Source: a virus
Lineage: Duplodnaviria > Caudoviricetes
Reading direction: 5' to 3' (one strand)
Virus record (IMG/VR): IMGVR_UViG_3300031963_000080
Coordinates: 15,032-79,031 of that record
Length of the DNA stretch: 64,000 nt
The position numbers and the translations under genes are program-made. Shown here one piece after another: positions 3,541 to 6,341 of the stretch (its first letter is position 1; every line of letters starts with the position of its first letter). The notes beneath the pieces were generated by a model, which searched no databases, was not told the DNA's origin, and saw only the letters and a program-made list of their open reading frames with translations.

Positions 3541-3882
3541 TCAAATCCTCCCATAAGAATCTTCAATTCTAACAATGTCTTCTTCAATGCATTTTTCTCC
3601 AAGTTGAACTTCTATAATTATTATACCATTATTCCCTCCAGTAATACGATGTTTGGATAAAATTGGAACAAAAATATAATCTCCAACTTTTACATTTGTA
3701 GTTTCTTCATTTAATTCCAATTTGCCACTACCGCATACCACAACCCAATGTTCATCTCTTTGTTTATGATATTGTAAGGATATTTTTTGAGTCGGCTGAA
3801 TATATAGCCTCTTAACTTTATATCCATCGTCATCTTTTAGATTTTCATGCCAACCCCAAGGTTTATGTATTCTTTCTATCAT
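3541..3882 (-). CDS. cupin, mannose-6-phosphate isomerase type II C-terminal-like
   Basis: KPWG, SLQYH..RDEHW, EVQLG..EEDIVRIED motifs; ATGA overlap with the upstream stop. Confidence 0.88.
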   Translation of the reverse strand: MIERIHKPWGWHENLKDDDGYKVKRLYIQPTQKISLQYHKQRDEHWVVVCGSGKLELNEETTNVKVGDYIFVPILSKHRITGGNNGIIIIEVQLGEKCIEEDIVRIEDSYGRI

Positions 3883-4703
3883 ACTGCACAATTTGTAAAA
3901 TCGACTTGTCCATTTCGAGTTGCCCAGATTGGATACTCTTTTCCATAATTATTCCAAATCCTAGCTTGTTCTGGTCCAACTGGAACTCCACTCATCCCAG
4001 CAGCATTCCAAATAGTTTCATAAGTATCATCCTCATGGAAAGTAAAATCATGTTCTTCAGACTTAATTTTCAATAAAAGGGAGAGGATCGATTGATCGTG
4101 TCTATGTTCTCTGAAAATCTCATTATTTGTCAATTTCGATGGACTATCATCTAGATATCTCCCATCATCTTTGACACAAATCGACATCCATTTTTCAACT
4201 AAATCTCGAACCATTTGAGTATTTTTCAAAAAGAAAATCCCAGAAATTATTTGTTTTGTCATAAAATGTCCATCGTCATCTCCCATAATATGACAATAAG
4301 TATCCATTTTTGTCCATTGAATTTCGGGTAAATCCAAAGTAAAAAACACTCCTTCAGTATCAATGCATTCATCATAATACTGATTCAATTTCACCAATCC
4401 ATTTTTATTCAATTCACAACCAGAATCAACATACAATAGAATATCATTTTCTGGGATACTTTTTAGAGCCTCCAAAACAAAATAGGGTTTACATGCATAA
4501 TAGCCATAGTATCTCTGGTTCAATCCAGAACGAAGAGACATCATTGGTTTTATATGGTTGTCCCAAAAAGAGTTGTTCTCTAAGTCATCCTCCCCATATT
4601 CAAGTATTGACTTAAATATTCCAAAATTTTTTGCTTGGTTTTCAATTCTCTTCTTTCCTATAGAAAAATTATTATCCCCAAAATAAGTTAAGTGCAAATT
4701 CAT
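3879..4703 (-). CDS. putative nucleotide-sugar/glycosyltransferase-like protein
   Basis: KPYFV, LLYVDSG and EHRHDQSILSLL motifs; sugar-cluster context. Confidence 0.6.
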   Translation of the reverse strand: MNLHLTYFGDNNFSIGKKRIENQAKNFGIFKSILEYGEDDLENNSFWDNHIKPMMSLRSGLNQRYYGYYACKPYFVLEALKSIPENDILLYVDSGCELNKNGLVKLNQYYDECIDTEGVFFTLDLPEIQWTKMDTYCHIMGDDDGHFMTKQIISGIFFLKNTQMVRDLVEKWMSICVKDDGRYLDDSPSKLTNNEIFREHRHDQSILSLLLKIKSEEHDFTFHEDDTYETIWNAAGMSGVPVGPEQARIWNNYGKEYPIWATRNGQVDFTNCAV

Positions 4704-4729
4704 ATGGCAGTAATCACCGATTCATACGC

Positions 4730-4759
4730 ATTATACCAAAAAAGAGGAGTTGTTGTCAA
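4730..4759 (-). promoter_or_regulatory. sigma70-type promoter for the sugar cluster
   Basis: TTGACA-N18-TATAAT with an extended -10 (TGG TATAAT); overlaps the terminator hairpin. Confidence 0.7.
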
Positions 4760-4765
4760 CTCCTC
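4738..4765 (-). terminator. intrinsic terminator closing the structured RNA
   Basis: GAGGAGTTG-ACAA-CAACTCCTC followed by TTTTTT. Confidence 0.8.
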
Positions 4766-5185
4766 CATCAGGTCTGCCATGCACGCCACCAATTCTTTAA
4801 CTGGAAATTGGAAACCAGGCGGGAGTAACCTCCACATCCGCACCAGTCGTCATATTTAATGTCCATACGACGAGGACAATTTTGGGTCACAATTGGCTCC
4901 ACCACTTAGTTTTGAGAAACTAAGAAAAGTTGTGCTAATTTACTCAATTCGATCATACTAAAGAAAACGCATAATAACAACATATCCCATAATCTAAATT
5001 TAATCACAAAAGGAACAATAAGTAGTCCCCCAATAAACTTCAATAATAGACCACTTTTGAAATCCCCCCATAACATAATTTGATAACCAATAATGAGAAA
5101 AAGATTTCCAAGGTACCTAAGAACACTAGTTTTAGACATAAGGGAAGCACTCCGACCAGGGCAAGTTTTAAGTCATTCCGAGACT
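4766..5185 (-). ncRNA. modular structured RNA, probably manA-motif-like, containing a small ORF
   Basis: Four hairpin or pseudoknot units, each followed by UGG(U/C)... It lies upstream of sugar-metabolism genes and near tRNAs, as described for the manA motif. Family call is from memory. Confidence 0.7.
4906..5139 (-). CDS. small membrane protein embedded in the structured RNA
   Basis: 77 aa with about 3 hydrophobic segments. Confidence 0.7.
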   Translation of the reverse strand: MSKTSVLRYLGNLFLIIGYQIMLWGDFKSGLLLKFIGGLLIVPFVIKFRLWDMLLLCVFFSMIELSKLAQLFLVSQN

Positions 5186-5190
5186 ATTTA

Positions 5191-5415
5191 CTATGCAGGA
5201 ACATCGACTTGAAGATCTTCACAAAGAAGGCTCAAAATTAACTCATAATCAGCTTCCGATTCCTGATAAAACTGAATTCCTTGCTCTTCATAAAATTTTT
5301 TAACCTTTTTGAAGAGTTTTGGTTGATCATATTCTAGATCAATTTCTCGGTTTGCGGCACGAGTAAGAGTATAAATTGATTTGCGAAACTTTGAATTGAA
5401 AGGATGATTAGACAT
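5191..5415 (-). CDS. hypothetical protein
   Basis: Start moved to ATG 5415 because a consensus promoter occupies 5438-5466. Confidence 0.75.
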   Translation of the reverse strand: MSNHPFNSKFRKSIYTLTRAANREIDLEYDQPKLFKKVKKFYEEQGIQFYQESEADYELILSLLCEDLQVDVPA

Positions 5416-5437
5416 TGGTTGAATTTGATTCGTTCCT

Positions 5438-5466
5438 ATTATAAGAGAGAATTGGTGAGATGTCAA
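5438..5466 (-). promoter_or_regulatory. sigma70-type early promoter
   Basis: TTGACA-N17-TATAAT, perfect consensus. Confidence 0.85.
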
Positions 5467-5489
5467 GGGGCACCAAGAATAAAATTTTC

Positions 5490-6068
5490 TTATCTAAGTT
5501 TTGGGCCACGCATCCAAGTAACTAACGATAATCTAGTCCCACTTAATACCTTTGAAACTCTATGTGGAAGCCTAGAATCGAAAATCGTTATAGATCCTTT
5601 AGTTCTAGAAATTGAAGTAATGTTTGCATGATAATCAATTAATTGCAATTCTCCGCCATCATATTCGGATTCATCTGAAATGAGTAGAGAAGCAGACAAT
5701 TTTCTAGTATATGCTGAGTCATCTAGACCATAATCACAATGCCAATTATAGTGCCCATTTTGATCATATTTACTAACTTGTATTGACTCTATTCCCGCCA
5801 AATCATATTCCCAACATTCTCTATTAGCTTTTTCGAAATAATGACGGAACATGGAGCATATCCAATGATCGTCCTGTAGCCAGTATATAGTGGAATCTCT
5901 GATATTTTTCAAATTGGGGGAATCTTCTTCTTCGTTTGCTGTGGTGCCAACCAAAAAAGAATCTGGGTCAATGATTTTTATTTCTTTTATCATCATGTCA
6001 ATCAATTCCGATGGTATTACCTCCGAATAATAAACATAAGATGATGCTTCTTTGTCGTAATATGTCAT
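5490..6068 (-). CDS. 2OG-Fe(II) oxygenase (PKHD-type hydroxylase-like)
   Basis: WHCD, RKLSAS, YDGGEL, HRV and R-x-S motifs. Confidence 0.9.
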   Translation of the reverse strand: MTYYDKEASSYVYYSEVIPSELIDMMIKEIKIIDPDSFLVGTTANEEEDSPNLKNIRDSTIYWLQDDHWICSMFRHYFEKANRECWEYDLAGIESIQVSKYDQNGHYNWHCDYGLDDSAYTRKLSASLLISDESEYDGGELQLIDYHANITSISRTKGSITIFDSRLPHRVSKVLSGTRLSLVTWMRGPKLR

Positions 6069-6084
6069 AAAAATATATTAAATA

Positions 6085-6297
6085 TCAGCTTCCTTCTTCA
6101 TGATCGGTATGAATTCTGATAAGATCGTCATCAGAACAAGTTCCACCAAATACTTCTACCATTTCATTATATGGAACCATAATTGCATTTCCATGCTCAC
6201 TTGTTATAATTAATGATTCACCATTTTCTACTCTTTCCATCAAATAGTCAAAATCAGATTGAAATTCTTCTACTGTAAATGATTGAAGTTCTGCCAT
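6085..6297 (-). CDS. Phd/YefM-like small protein
   Basis: TVEEFQSDFDYLMERVENGESLIIT..G.AIMVPY matches the Phd/YefM N-terminal pattern. Confidence 0.6.
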   Translation of the reverse strand: MAELQSFTVEEFQSDFDYLMERVENGESLIITSEHGNAIMVPYNEMVEVFGGTCSDDDLIRIHTDHEEGS

Positions 6298-6341
6298 TTT
6301 TATGAAATTAAATTTACACAGATTAGGTAACAAATTCCTAA

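What the first reader, a model, noticed from the sequence alone, without database searches (positions are those of the whole stretch)
4766..5185. Modular RNA with four helix-adjacent sites complementary to tRNA 3' ends: candidate tRNA-capturing RNA
Seen (minus strand): four structured modules, each followed directly by an 11-nt segment. (1) Hairpin AGUC/GACU and a linker, then UGGUCGGAGUG (5148-5158). (2) Hairpin CUUAGUUU/AAACUAAG, then UGGUGGAGCCA (4894-4904). (3) Pseudoknot GUCC/GGAC whose loop UCGUCGUAU pairs with AUAUGACGA, then UGGUGCGGAUG (4835-4845). (4) Pseudoknot CUGG/CCAG whose loop CCAAUU pairs with AAUUGG, then UGGCGUGCAUG (4778-4788). The reverse complements read as acceptor strand + discriminator + CCA: CACUCCG-A-CCA, UGGCUCC-A-CCA, CAUCCGC-A-CCA and CAUGCAC-G-CCA. 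Known: G72/A73 is the bacterial tRNA-Pro signature, U70 with A73 is the tRNA-Ala signature, and CAUCCGCA fits GCGGAUG-type tRNA-Leu. The G73 site is Arg-like but least certain. T-box antiterminators and retroelement primer-binding sites also bind tRNA through UGG-initiated pairing. None of the phage tRNAs in this window (Pro UAUCCGGA; Leu UUCGAGCA and UACUCGCA; Arg UGAGCCUG) matches these sites. Inference: the RNA binds host tRNAs of GC-rich codon families as a sponge, a protector or an uncharged-tRNA sensor, while the AT-rich phage supplies its own Pro, Leu and Arg tRNAs. It resembles the functionally unexplained manA RNA motif, and I know of no description of this complementarity.
Basis: partly seen in the sequence, partly recalled or inferred. 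Interest (0 to 1): 0.92.

Follow-up and report, generated by a model that had tools for sequence, protein, structure and literature searches.

The report
Phage RNA array matching tRNA ends
This is the known but unexplained cyanophage "wcaG" RNA, here part of a four-unit chain in which each folded unit is followed by a short tail that is complementary to the 3' end of a particular host tRNA, which gives this orphan RNA a concrete partner to test.

Summary
Modules 3 and 4 together are the Rfam wcaG RNA (RF01761, 68.4 bits against a cut-off of 42), not manA. Modules 1 and 2 are further units that the Rfam model does not cover.

I compared the tails with all 44 tRNAs of a stand-in host Synechococcus genome.
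- Module 3 is the exact complement of tRNA-Leu(CAG/GAG)+CCA.
- Module 2 is the exact complement of tRNA-Ala(GGC).
- Module 1 pairs with tRNA-Pro(GGG) through one G.U.
- Module 4 is one mismatch from tRNA-Arg(CCG).

Of 2092 other TGG+8-mers in the window, 3 match this well. Where the tRNA stem holds a G.U pair, the tail follows the complement of the 3' strand and not the 5' strand. These tRNA ends are conserved across picocyanobacteria. The phage's own tRNAs do not match.

Pairing with host tRNA 3' ends is therefore the best reading. Whether the RNA acts as a sponge, a sensor or a guide is untested. Three points count against it. The Arg-like tail is never a perfect match. The 3' halves of the tails lie in linker hairpins. 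There is no binding data.

My literature searches found no published description. This scan reached the same reading earlier on other phage genomes.

The parts
4775..4879 (-). Rfam wcaG RNA (RF01761), which equals units 3 and 4 plus the linker hairpin P2
   Evidence: cmscan gave 68.4 bits (gathering score 42), E 1.3e-10, model positions 1-98 (repeated)
5171..5185 (-). Unit 1 hairpin AGUC-UCGGAAU-GACU ('type II' scaffold), followed by the linker UAAAACUUGCCC (5170-5159)
   Evidence: Sequence. The same scaffold precedes UGG tails in L009, L012, L013, L020, L023, L028, L093, in S-RIM8 directly after a phage tRNA-Leu gene, and in S-SRM01
5148..5158 (-). Tail 1, UGGUCGGAGUG: pairs with host tRNA-Pro(GGG) 3' end CGCUCCG-A-CCA (11 pairs, one G.U). 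It contains the GGAG Shine-Dalgarno of the next gene
   Evidence: The predicted duplex is -19.5 kcal/mol against -11.0 for the tRNA's own acceptor stem
4906..5139 (-). 77-codon hydrophobic-protein gene lying between units 1 and 2. Its stop codon sits in the 3' arm of the unit 2 hairpin
   Evidence: ORF list; phrog_2318, E 3.8e-19. The same gene in the same place is seen in S-SRM01 and in L003, L004, L011, L014, L025, L031, L036
4905..4924 (-). Unit 2 hairpin CUUAGUUU-CUCA-AAACUAAG
   Evidence: Sequence. Homologous hairpins with other stem sequences (CUUGG/CCAAG, CCUAG/CUAGG) occur before UGGUGGAGUCA in relatives
4894..4904 (-). Tail 2, UGGUGGAGCCA: exact complement of host tRNA-Ala(GGC) 3' end UGGCUCC-A-CCA
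   Evidence: This tRNA end was found in 49 of 61 Cyanobiaceae genomes by my count of the listed rows
4846..4877 (-). Unit 3 H-type pseudoknot (GUCC/GGAC crossing UCGUCGUAU/AUAUGACGA)
   Evidence: Sequence. Relatives carry GCCC/GGGC in the same place. The commoner form of this unit covaries strongly
4835..4845 (-). Tail 3, UGGUGCGGAUG: exact complement of host tRNA-Leu(CAG) and tRNA-Leu(GAG) 3' end CAUCCGC-A-CCA
   Evidence: This tRNA end was found in 96 of 101 Cyanobiaceae genomes and in 5 of 5 distant cyanobacteria. The tail is identical in 89 of 101 family regions
4818..4834 (-). Linker hairpin P2 (core GGAG 4833-4830 / CUCC 4825-4822) and the CGCC that follows
   Evidence: Rfam alignment. 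In the family the inner P2 pairs vary while the outer pairs never vary
4789..4818 (-). Unit 4 H-type pseudoknot (CUGG/CCAG crossing CCAAUU/AAUUGG, with an A-rich third loop)
   Evidence: Sequence. Four of six stem pairs have changes on both sides. The pseudoknot letters themselves were fixed by my search pattern, so they show no variation
4778..4788 (-). Tail 4, UGGCGUGCAUG: 10 of 11 positions complementary to host tRNA-Arg(CCG) 3' end CAUGCUC-G-CCA (U opposite U71)
   Evidence: This tRNA end is CAUGCUC-G in 101 of 111 Cyanobiaceae genomes; no genome gave a perfect partner
4737..4766 (-). Intrinsic terminator (10-bp stem, then a U run) directly after the array
   Evidence: Of 101 family members, 79 have a T6+ run within 110 nt downstream
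4730..4759 (-). Sigma-70-type promoter (TTGACA-18-TATAAT, 12 of 12) nested in the terminator, serving the downstream sugar-gene cluster
   Evidence: In 68 of 101 family members the T run is followed by TAnAAT. The downstream genes are a possible glycosyltransferase, a mannose-6-P-isomerase-like cupin, GDP-mannose dehydratase, an epimerase and a DegT aminotransferase

Best explanation
The element is a wcaG-family RNA built as a chain of four independent units on the minus strand. Each unit is a rigid scaffold, either an H-type pseudoknot or a hairpin. It is followed at once by UGGN, which is complementary to the single-stranded NCCA end of a mature tRNA. Up to 7 further letters are complementary to the 3' strand of the acceptor stem of one host tRNA species. 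In this window the four are Pro(GGG), Ala(GGC), Leu(CAG/GAG) and, imperfectly, Arg(CCG). I propose that the RNA pairs with the 3' ends of these host tRNAs. UGGN would serve as a toehold stacked on the scaffold helix, and pairing would then spread into the acceptor stem and displace the tRNA's own 5' strand. A tRNA held this way cannot be charged or delivered to the ribosome. The targeted isoacceptors read G/C-rich codons that the host uses heavily and the AT-rich phage hardly uses. The phage's own Pro, Leu and Arg tRNAs do not match the tails. So the most likely effect is to hold back host-type tRNAs and tilt translation toward phage messages. What is shown: family membership, the fold, the complementarity and its statistical excess, conservation of the tRNA ends, and escape of the phage tRNAs. 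What is inferred: physical binding, invasion of the stem, preference for uncharged tRNA, and the effect on translation.
For: Identity: wcaG at 68.4 bits. Fold: 98.4% of cells paired against 31-56% when slid, and 12 pairs changed on both sides. Match to host tRNAs: two tails score 8/8 Watson-Crick beyond UGG, one makes 8 pairs with one G.U, and one scores 7/8. Background: of 2092 other TGG+8-mers in the window, 1 is perfect and 2 are near-perfect, all in coding sequence. Composition-matched permutations reach the level of (8 pairs, 7 or more Watson-Crick) in 1.3%, 0.24% and 1.3% of cases for the first three tails. They reach 7/8 or better in 2.3% of cases for tail 4. In the family, 174 of 876 sense-strand TGG+8-mers reach that level, and 0 of 329 antisense ones reach even (7 pairs, 6 Watson-Crick). 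Direction of pairing: where the host tRNA has a G.U pair in the stem, the tail carries the complement of the 3' strand and not a copy of the 5' strand. Examples are GGAGCCA against the tRNA's 5' GGGGCCA, and CGGAG.. against CGGGG... The fourth letter follows the discriminator: U for the A73 tRNAs (Leu, Ala, Pro) and C for the G73 Arg. A family variant, UGGUCGGGAUG, is the exact complement of host tRNA-Pro(CGG). One relative that encodes its own tmRNA has a tail that exactly complements the host tmRNA end. The tRNA ends are conserved: Leu 96/101, Ala 49/61, Pro 34 or more and 31 or more of 49, Arg 101/111 genomes. Phage tRNAs in the window make at most 7 pairs with 6 or fewer Watson-Crick. Energies: the duplexes are -19 to -21 kcal/mol against -10.5 to -11 for the acceptor stems. 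Cofolding gain is -15.1 (Leu) and -18.4 (Ala), against -3.5 to -6.6 for five non-target tRNAs. Codons: CUG 5% in phage and 50% in host, CCG 5/30, CGG 1/25, GCC 9/51. Setting: 84 of 101 arrays have a same-strand tRNA gene within 3 kb, and some abut tRNA genes. wcaG was not found in 150 Cyanobiaceae genomes. The array is present in contigs from RNA libraries of four studies.
Against: No binding or expression experiment exists. Tail 4 belongs to the most conserved tail class of the family, yet it is never a perfect match. Both of its common forms are one mismatch from the invariant host tRNA-Arg(CCG) end, and no tRNA with a perfect end was found in 111-151 genomes. Letters 7-11 of tail 3, and all acceptor-matching letters of the Ala-type tail, lie in linker hairpins. 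RNAalifold offers a helix GGUGCGG/CCGCCU that would cover two G of the UGG of tail 3. All these columns are invariant, so covariation cannot decide. Some family variants keep only 7-9 complementary letters. Opening a tRNA acceptor stem has a kinetic cost, and cellular tRNAs are mostly charged, bound by EF-Tu and modified. The energy model ignores all of this. The host genome is a stand-in (a Synechococcus MAG). The phage's best RNA-library holders are labelled freshwater, and its real host is unknown. Several targeted tRNAs also read U-ending codons that the phage uses (CUU 23%, CCU 28%, GCU 32%), which sits badly with plain inactivation. tRNAs are abundant, so a sponge would have to be abundant too.
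Confidence: 0.55

Rival explanations
1. tRNA-sensing cis-regulator. The same pairing occurs, but its purpose is to report the level of uncharged host tRNAs to the RNA's own genes. tRNA-Pro bound at tail 1 would cover the GGAG ribosome-binding site of the 77-codon gene. Binding at the last units would alter read-through of the terminator into the sugar genes. This is T-box-like logic without a specifier.
For: UGGN pairing with NCCA is how T-box RNAs read tRNA charging (established knowledge). Tail 1 contains the Shine-Dalgarno 10 nt before the ATG. Some family members run straight into a start codon with no terminator (L012, L033, L116, L120). Weinberg et al. rated wcaG a probable cis-regulator.
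Against: No T-box match in the region up to E=5. No anticodon-reading element was seen. The spacer between the last tail and the terminator varies freely in length and sequence, and I saw no conserved antiterminator pairing. In 68 of 101 members a promoter-like TAnAAT follows the terminator, so the downstream genes need no read-through. Arrays that sit between tRNA genes have no gene to regulate.
Confidence: 0.2
2. Substrate or guide for an RNA-processing enzyme. The array-tRNA hybrid resembles a pre-tRNA whose 5' strand is supplied by the array. RNase P or another tRNA-processing nuclease would then cut the array or the tRNA. Alternatively, the units bind a tRNA-handling protein and not tRNA itself.
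For: The arrays sit inside phage tRNA clusters and abut tRNA genes. A hybrid helix with the tRNA body attached has the geometry that RNase P recognises (external-guide-sequence principle, recalled knowledge). T-even phages cut a host leucine tRNA early in infection (recalled, not checked here).
Against: Pairing of UGGN with NCCA would hide the CCA that bacterial RNase P uses (recalled knowledge). The linker hairpins do not copy acceptor stems, so they are poor protein decoys. No candidate nuclease was identified.
Confidence: 0.12
3. Small-molecule riboswitch, as first proposed for wcaG. The invariant UGG tails would form ligand pockets or tertiary contacts, and the likeness to tRNA ends would be coincidence.
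For: The RNA has a highly conserved unpaired core beside covarying helices, and it lies near sugar-nucleotide genes.
Against: Coincidence is hard to sustain. Three of four tails match at a level reached by 3 of 2092 background words. The tails differ between units while the scaffolds are interchangeable, which is unlike repeated aptamers for one ligand. The number and order of units vary from 2 to 4 or more. A terminator and then a promoter separate the RNA from the sugar genes.
Confidence: 0.08
4. DNA-level feature. The plus strand carries short copies of tRNA 3' ends as relics of integration or recombination sites.
For: Many phages integrate at tRNA 3' ends and carry a copy of that end (established knowledge).
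Against: Each match is only 11 letters. The match includes CCA, but the ARAGORN sequences of the matching G005 Pro, Ala, Leu and Arg genes end at the discriminator, and the letters after them were not read. Four different ends stand in a row, each tied to an RNA fold that covaries on the minus strand. Departures from perfect match are often G.U-compatible only on the minus-strand RNA. No integrase was looked for, and these are T4-like lytic phages.
Confidence: 0.02

Closest known systems
wcaG RNA motif (Rfam RF01761; Weinberg et al. 2010, PMC2864571; I read the passages found by a term search, not the additional files)
   Same: Units 3 and 4 with the linker hairpin match the model end to end. 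The setting is the same: a T4-like cyanophage, upstream of sugar and exopolysaccharide genes. The function is unknown.
   Different: Here the motif is only the last half of a four-unit chain, with a gene between units 1 and 2. Both hairpins are pseudoknots. A terminator and a promoter stand between the RNA and the sugar genes. The unpaired consensus stretches are complementary to host tRNA 3' ends, which the passages I read do not mention.
T-box riboswitch
   Same: A UGGN element pairs with the NCCA end of a tRNA, and N follows the discriminator base. The element lies next to a helix that can stack on the short duplex.
   Different: There is no Stem I or specifier to read the anticodon and no conserved antiterminator. 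There is no Rfam T-box match. Complementarity runs up to 7 letters into the acceptor stem. Several tRNA species are addressed in series. The RNA is encoded by a phage.
Primer-binding sites of retroviruses and LTR retrotransposons
   Same: An RNA stretch beginning UGG is complementary to the 3'-terminal letters of a specific cellular tRNA, so the acceptor stem must open.
   Different: The stretch is 11 letters, not about 18. There are four sites for four tRNAs. No reverse transcriptase was found in the 79-kb record. The phage is a lytic DNA phage.
manA RNA motif (RF01745)
   Same: It is an orphan cyanophage and marine RNA described together with wcaG.
   Different: It has no match in the window at the gathering score, nor in the region up to E=5.
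Sponge RNAs with repeated binding sites (for example CsrB/RsmZ for CsrA; recalled)
   Same: A chain of similar structured units each displays a short conserved single-stranded motif.
   Different: The proposed ligand is tRNA and not a protein. Each unit has its own specificity tail.

Membership tests
wcaG RNA (RF01761) | Covariance-model score at or above the gathering score | tested here: met
   68.4 bits against 42, full length 1-98, window 4775-4879 minus strand
wcaG RNA (RF01761) | Three hairpins supported by covariation | tested here: met
   In 67 relatives, helix 1 has 5/5 pairs and helix 3 has 4/6 pairs with changes on both sides. P2 has one such pair and 4 invariant pairs
wcaG RNA (RF01761) | Conserved unpaired stretches UGGUGCGGAUG and GUGGCG | tested here: met
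   Both are present in the window. They occur in 89 of 101 and 88 of 101 family regions
wcaG RNA (RF01761) | Lies in the 5' UTR of the gene it regulates (cis-regulatory) | tested here: inconclusive
   Sugar genes follow, but a terminator and a 12/12 promoter lie between them and the RNA. The same layout is seen in 68-79 of 101 relatives
manA RNA (RF01745) | Covariance-model match | tested here: not met
   No match at the gathering score in the window, nor up to E=5 in 4650-5300
T-box riboswitch | UGGN complementary to tRNA NCCA, with N matching the discriminator | tested here: met
   UGGU goes with the A73 tRNAs (Leu, Ala, Pro) and UGGC with the G73 Arg
T-box riboswitch | Stem I with a specifier codon and a T-box/antiterminator fold (Rfam RF00230) | tested here: not met
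   No T-box match up to E=5, and no conserved antiterminator was seen in the family
Retroelement primer-binding site | Complementarity to a tRNA 3' end starting at CCA | tested here: met
   11 letters for Leu and Ala, and 11 with one G.U for Pro
Retroelement primer-binding site | Reverse transcriptase in the same element | tested here: not met
   No RVT_1 match in the 79-kb record, which is estimated 41% complete
tRNA-binding RNA in general (proposed) | Physical binding of tRNA | not testable with these tools
   Only nearest-neighbour energies are available

The most novel reading that the evidence does not exclude
Cyanomyophages make a programmable anti-tRNA RNA. It is a chain of interchangeable scaffolds, each carrying a tail that captures the 3' end of one host tRNA species (Leu-CUN, Ala-GCC, Pro-CCS, Arg-CGG, and in some phages tmRNA). 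The tail invades the acceptor stem from the CCA toehold. This selectively withdraws the tRNAs that host messages need, while the phage translates with its own, non-matching tRNAs. It would be a host shut-off mechanism based on codon usage, carried out by RNA alone.
Probability: 0.35. Interest if true: 0.95.

Novelty: new variant of a known kind. Interest (0 to 1): 0.85.

Why it matters
wcaG has been an orphan riboswitch candidate since 2010. Systematic complementarity to the 3' ends of specific host tRNAs replaces the question of which unknown ligand it binds with named partners that can be tested in a week of gel shifts. If binding is real, this would be the first RNA outside T-box leaders and retroelement primer sites that reads tRNA 3' ends, and the first that addresses several tRNA species in series. 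It would also link two long-standing puzzles of phage biology: why AT-rich phages of GC-rich hosts carry their own tRNAs, and how they bias translation toward their own messages. Isolates with the same architecture exist (S-SRM01), so experiments are possible.

Tried and rejected
manA identity was rejected: there is no match. Near-identical phage records: megablast of 3800-6300 found none. The distant search found only short conserved pieces in 51 Synechococcus phage records.

A perfect partner for the commonest last tail (CAGGCUC-G): the loose pattern hit 28 places in 25 of 151 genomes, against 9 hits for the reversed control. The four loci I checked with ARAGORN held no tRNA, and I judged the rest by eye to lack a T arm; several are repeats of the same conserved coding stretch. 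The stricter pattern gave only CAUGCUC-G (101 genomes) or CAUGCCC-G (3 genomes).

tmRNA as the partner of the window's Ala tail: the host tmRNA end CAGCUCC-A gives only 9 contiguous pairs, and tRNA-Ala(GGC) fits better. Linker hairpins as acceptor-stem mimics: their 3' strands do not copy tRNA 3' strands. Integration-site relic: rejected, as set out under the rival explanations. Extension of pairing beyond 11 letters: seen only for the family's commonest Leu tail against tRNA-Leu(CAG), worked out by hand; it is not general.

Transcript ends: RNA-library contigs stop near 4779-4782 (X2, X5, X7) and near 5169-5186 (X1, X2, X5). These are contigs, no DNA run was laid beside them, and depth figures are per contig. 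I therefore draw no conclusion on RNA ends, abundance or uncovered parts.

For the covariation count I used 67 of the 101 distinct family sequences, namely those whose Leu unit has the common GUUU-stem form. The other 34, with other unit types or cut ends, were left out. The five pattern hits without a complementary stem (L007, L016, L087, L088, L117) were dropped as chance. Ten of 396 phage tRNAs could not be parsed for their ends. Complex prediction, the structure tools and the big protein searches were not used, because the question concerns RNA. The additional files of Weinberg et al. (alignments, gene lists) and the supplement of the S-CREM1 paper could not be seen; they may hold remarks on pseudoknots or context that I could not check.
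Full report
WHAT IS THERE. An Rfam scan of the whole window gives one non-tRNA match: wcaG RNA (RF01761) at 4775-4879, minus strand, 68.4 bits against a gathering score of 42, full length. The two tails UGGUGCGGAUG and UGGCGnGC are upper-case unpaired stretches of its consensus. manA does not match, at the gathering score or up to E=5, and neither does the T-box family. wcaG was described in 2010 as a riboswitch candidate of marine metagenomes and T4-like cyanophages, typically near exopolysaccharide or high-light genes. Its function is unknown (passages read). Later phage papers only list it (passages, listing).

SURROUNDINGS.
- A 77-codon hydrophobic-protein gene (4906-5139, phrog_2318, E 3.8e-19) lies between units 1 and 2. 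Its ribosome-binding GGAG is inside tail 1, and its stop codon is in the unit 2 hairpin.
- Upstream lie a phrog_552 gene and a perfect promoter at 5466-5438.
- Directly after tail 4 comes an intrinsic terminator (4766-4743 plus a U run). Nested in it is a 12/12 promoter (4759-4730).
- Then follow a possible glycosyltransferase, a mannose-6-P-isomerase-like cupin, GDP-mannose 4,6-dehydratase, an epimerase and a DegT aminotransferase.
- Seven phage tRNA genes lie 1.5-4.3 kb upstream on the same strand.
- The window is part of a 79-kb IMG/VR virus record with one wcaG copy.
- Only short conserved pieces match isolate phages, all of Synechococcus.
- S-SRM01, a freshwater isolate, has the same order: unit 1, the small gene, units 2-4, terminator, promoter, glycosyltransferase.

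THE FAMILY IS MODULAR. Of 122 matches (including the window's own), 117 have the complementary stem and 5 are chance. There are 101 distinct sequences. All 101 have TGG directly after the hairpin: TGGCG in 88 and TGGTG in 13.

Reading the flanks shows chains of 2 to 4 or more units. Two kinds of scaffold occur. One is an H-type pseudoknot (GUUU-stem-loop-stem). The other is a hairpin of the GUCUCGGnAnGAC type with an A-rich linker. The two kinds are combined freely with different tails. The Rfam model covers only the last two units.

On an alignment of 67 of the 101 sequences (those with the common Leu-unit form), 98.4% of cells pair, against 31-56% with slid partners. Twelve of 24 pairs change on both sides. 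The pseudoknot of the Leu unit covaries (GC 35 / AU 22 at one pair; AU 32 / GC 16 / GU 19 at another).

Seventy-nine of 101 members have a T6+ run within 110 nt downstream, and 68 have TAnAAT after it. Eighty-four have a same-strand tRNA gene within 3 kb. In some, the array starts one to three letters after a tRNA gene or ends at a tRNA-Gly gene. wcaG was not found in 150 sampled Cyanobiaceae genomes, while the same search finds it in the phage record.

THE TEST AGAINST HOST tRNAs. I reached host-type genomes through a phage psbA protein. I took one Synechococcus genome (G005, 2.1 Mb), located its 44 tRNAs, fetched them and derived the acceptor 3' strand plus discriminator for each. This gave 36 distinct ends.
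- Tail 3 is the exact complement of CAUCCGC-A-CCA, shared by tRNA-Leu(CAG) and tRNA-Leu(GAG).
- Tail 2 is the exact complement of UGGCUCC-A-CCA of tRNA-Ala(GGC).
- Tail 1 pairs with CGCUCCG-A-CCA of tRNA-Pro(GGG) over all 11 letters with one G.U.
- Tail 4 matches CAUGCUC-G-CCA of tRNA-Arg(CCG) at 10 of 11 letters.

Controls:
- Of 2092 TGG+8-mers elsewhere in the window (both strands), 1 is perfect and 2 are near-perfect, all inside coding sequence.
- Composition-matched permutations reach the level of (8 pairs, 7 or more Watson-Crick) in 1.3%, 0.24% and 1.3% of cases for the first three tails. They reach 7/8 or better in 2.3% of cases for tail 4. With the first two letters held fixed, the four observed match levels are reached in 1.1-6.7% of permutations.
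- Reversed or reverse-complemented tRNA ends give at most 7 pairs.
- In the family, 174 of 876 sense-strand TGG+8-mers reach this level, and no antisense word (0 of 329) reaches even (7 pairs, 6 Watson-Crick). These counts are not independent events.

Three further observations point to selection for pairing with the tRNA 3' strand.
- Where the tRNA stem has a G.U pair, the tail carries the Watson-Crick complement of the 3' strand and not a copy of the 5' strand (Ala G3.U70; Pro G4.U69; Arg G2.U71).
- The fourth letter of each tail follows the discriminator base.
- Several family variants differ from the perfect complement only by G.U-compatible changes (UGGUGGAGUCA, UGGUGCGGGUG).

Another family tail, UGGUCGGGAUG, is the exact complement of host tRNA-Pro(CGG).

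The tRNA ends are conserved in picocyanobacteria. Leu was found in 96 of 101 genomes and in 5 of 5 distant cyanobacteria. Ala was found in 49 of 61 by my count of rows. The two Pro ends were found in at least 34 and at least 31 of 49. Arg(CCG) was found in 101 of 111.

The window's own tRNAs do not match. Among 134 distinct ends of 396 phage tRNAs, only Pro tails find partners. One relative that encodes a tmRNA has a tail exactly complementary to the host tmRNA end. This is a single case.

WHAT SPEAKS AGAINST.
- Tail 4's class is never perfect. Its two common forms each miss the invariant tRNA-Arg(CCG) end at a different position, and no tRNA with a perfect end turned up.
- The 3' parts of the tails lie in linker hairpins.
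- RNAalifold prefers a helix GGUGCGG/CCGCCU that would also cover two G of tail 3's UGG. Every column involved is invariant, so this can be neither supported nor dismissed.
- Some variants keep only 7-9 complementary letters.
- Nearest-neighbour energies favour the hybrids. The duplexes are -19 to -21 kcal/mol against about -11 for the acceptor stems, and the cofolding gain is -15 to -18 for targets against -3.5 to -6.6 for five non-targets. These figures ignore tRNA tertiary structure, modification, charging and EF-Tu.
- The host is a stand-in. The best RNA-library holders of this phage are labelled freshwater.

HOW IT MOST LIKELY WORKS. I commit to pairing with host tRNA 3' ends. UGGN, held next to the scaffold helix, catches NCCA. 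Pairing then spreads into the acceptor stem. The phage (34.5% G+C) rarely uses the codons read by the targeted tRNAs (CUG 5%, CCG 5%, CGG 1%, GCC 9%), whereas the stand-in host (61.5% G+C) uses them heavily (50, 30, 25 and 51%). The phage brings its own tRNAs for UUA, UUG, CCA and AGA. Withholding host-type tRNAs to favour phage translation is therefore the leading reading.

It is weakened by the fact that some targets also read U-ending codons that the phage uses. A T-box-like sensing role is the main rival: tail 1 overlaps a ribosome-binding site, and a few relatives lead straight into a gene. The promoter after the terminator and the arrays that sit between tRNA genes argue for a free-standing RNA. 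Contigs from RNA libraries of four studies cover the array (X2 4780-5186, X5 4782-5169, X7 4779-5022, X1 4763-4932 and 4903-5178). That shows presence in RNA libraries and nothing more.

NOVELTY. The RNA family is known. The chain architecture, the pseudoknots and above all the tRNA complementarity are not in the papers I could search. The searches were made, and five papers mention the wcaG RNA or motif. Supplements were closed. This scan noted the same reading earlier on other phage genomes. I re-derived it here independently and added the background statistics, the G.U argument, the conservation counts and the codon comparison.

VERDICT. Interest is high.

Noticed in passing
window 4906-5139 (-): A conserved 77-codon hydrophobic-protein gene (phrog_2318, function unknown) sits between array units 1 and 2. 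Relatives without it have the units side by side, so the gene looks like an insertion into the chain, or the units are independent.
   Followed up: partly
window 4730-4766 (-): A terminator hairpin carries a perfect -35 box in its loop region, and a -10 box follows its U run. The same terminator-promoter cassette recurs after most wcaG arrays (68 of 101).
   Followed up: partly
L093 6828-7157 and L023 4513-4827: ARAGORN calls permuted tmRNA genes in two related phage contigs, close to tRNA genes and wcaG-type units.
   Followed up: partly
L245 846-1052 (S-SRM01 record MW015081.1, protein QPX48260.1): An annotated 'hypothetical protein' lies over the wcaG RNA and terminator of this isolate. It is probably a mis-called gene.
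   Followed up: no
G006, G008, G023, G026, G039, G043 and others: Many picocyanobacterial genomes hold 3-5 copies of a tRNA gene 3' part ending CGCCCCG-A (tRNA-Pro(UGG)-type), often clustered within tens of kb. These may be traces of island integration at that tRNA.
   Followed up: no
L244 701-823 (S-RIM8 A.HR1): A unit of the unit-1 type with tail UGGUCGGGAUA starts three letters after a phage tRNA-Leu gene and ends just before the start of the next gene.
   Followed up: partly
window 5191-5466 (-): The 91-codon ORF matches phrog_552 only from residue 24. Its true start is probably a later ATG, downstream of the perfect promoter at 5466-5438 that the long ORF overlaps.
   Followed up: no
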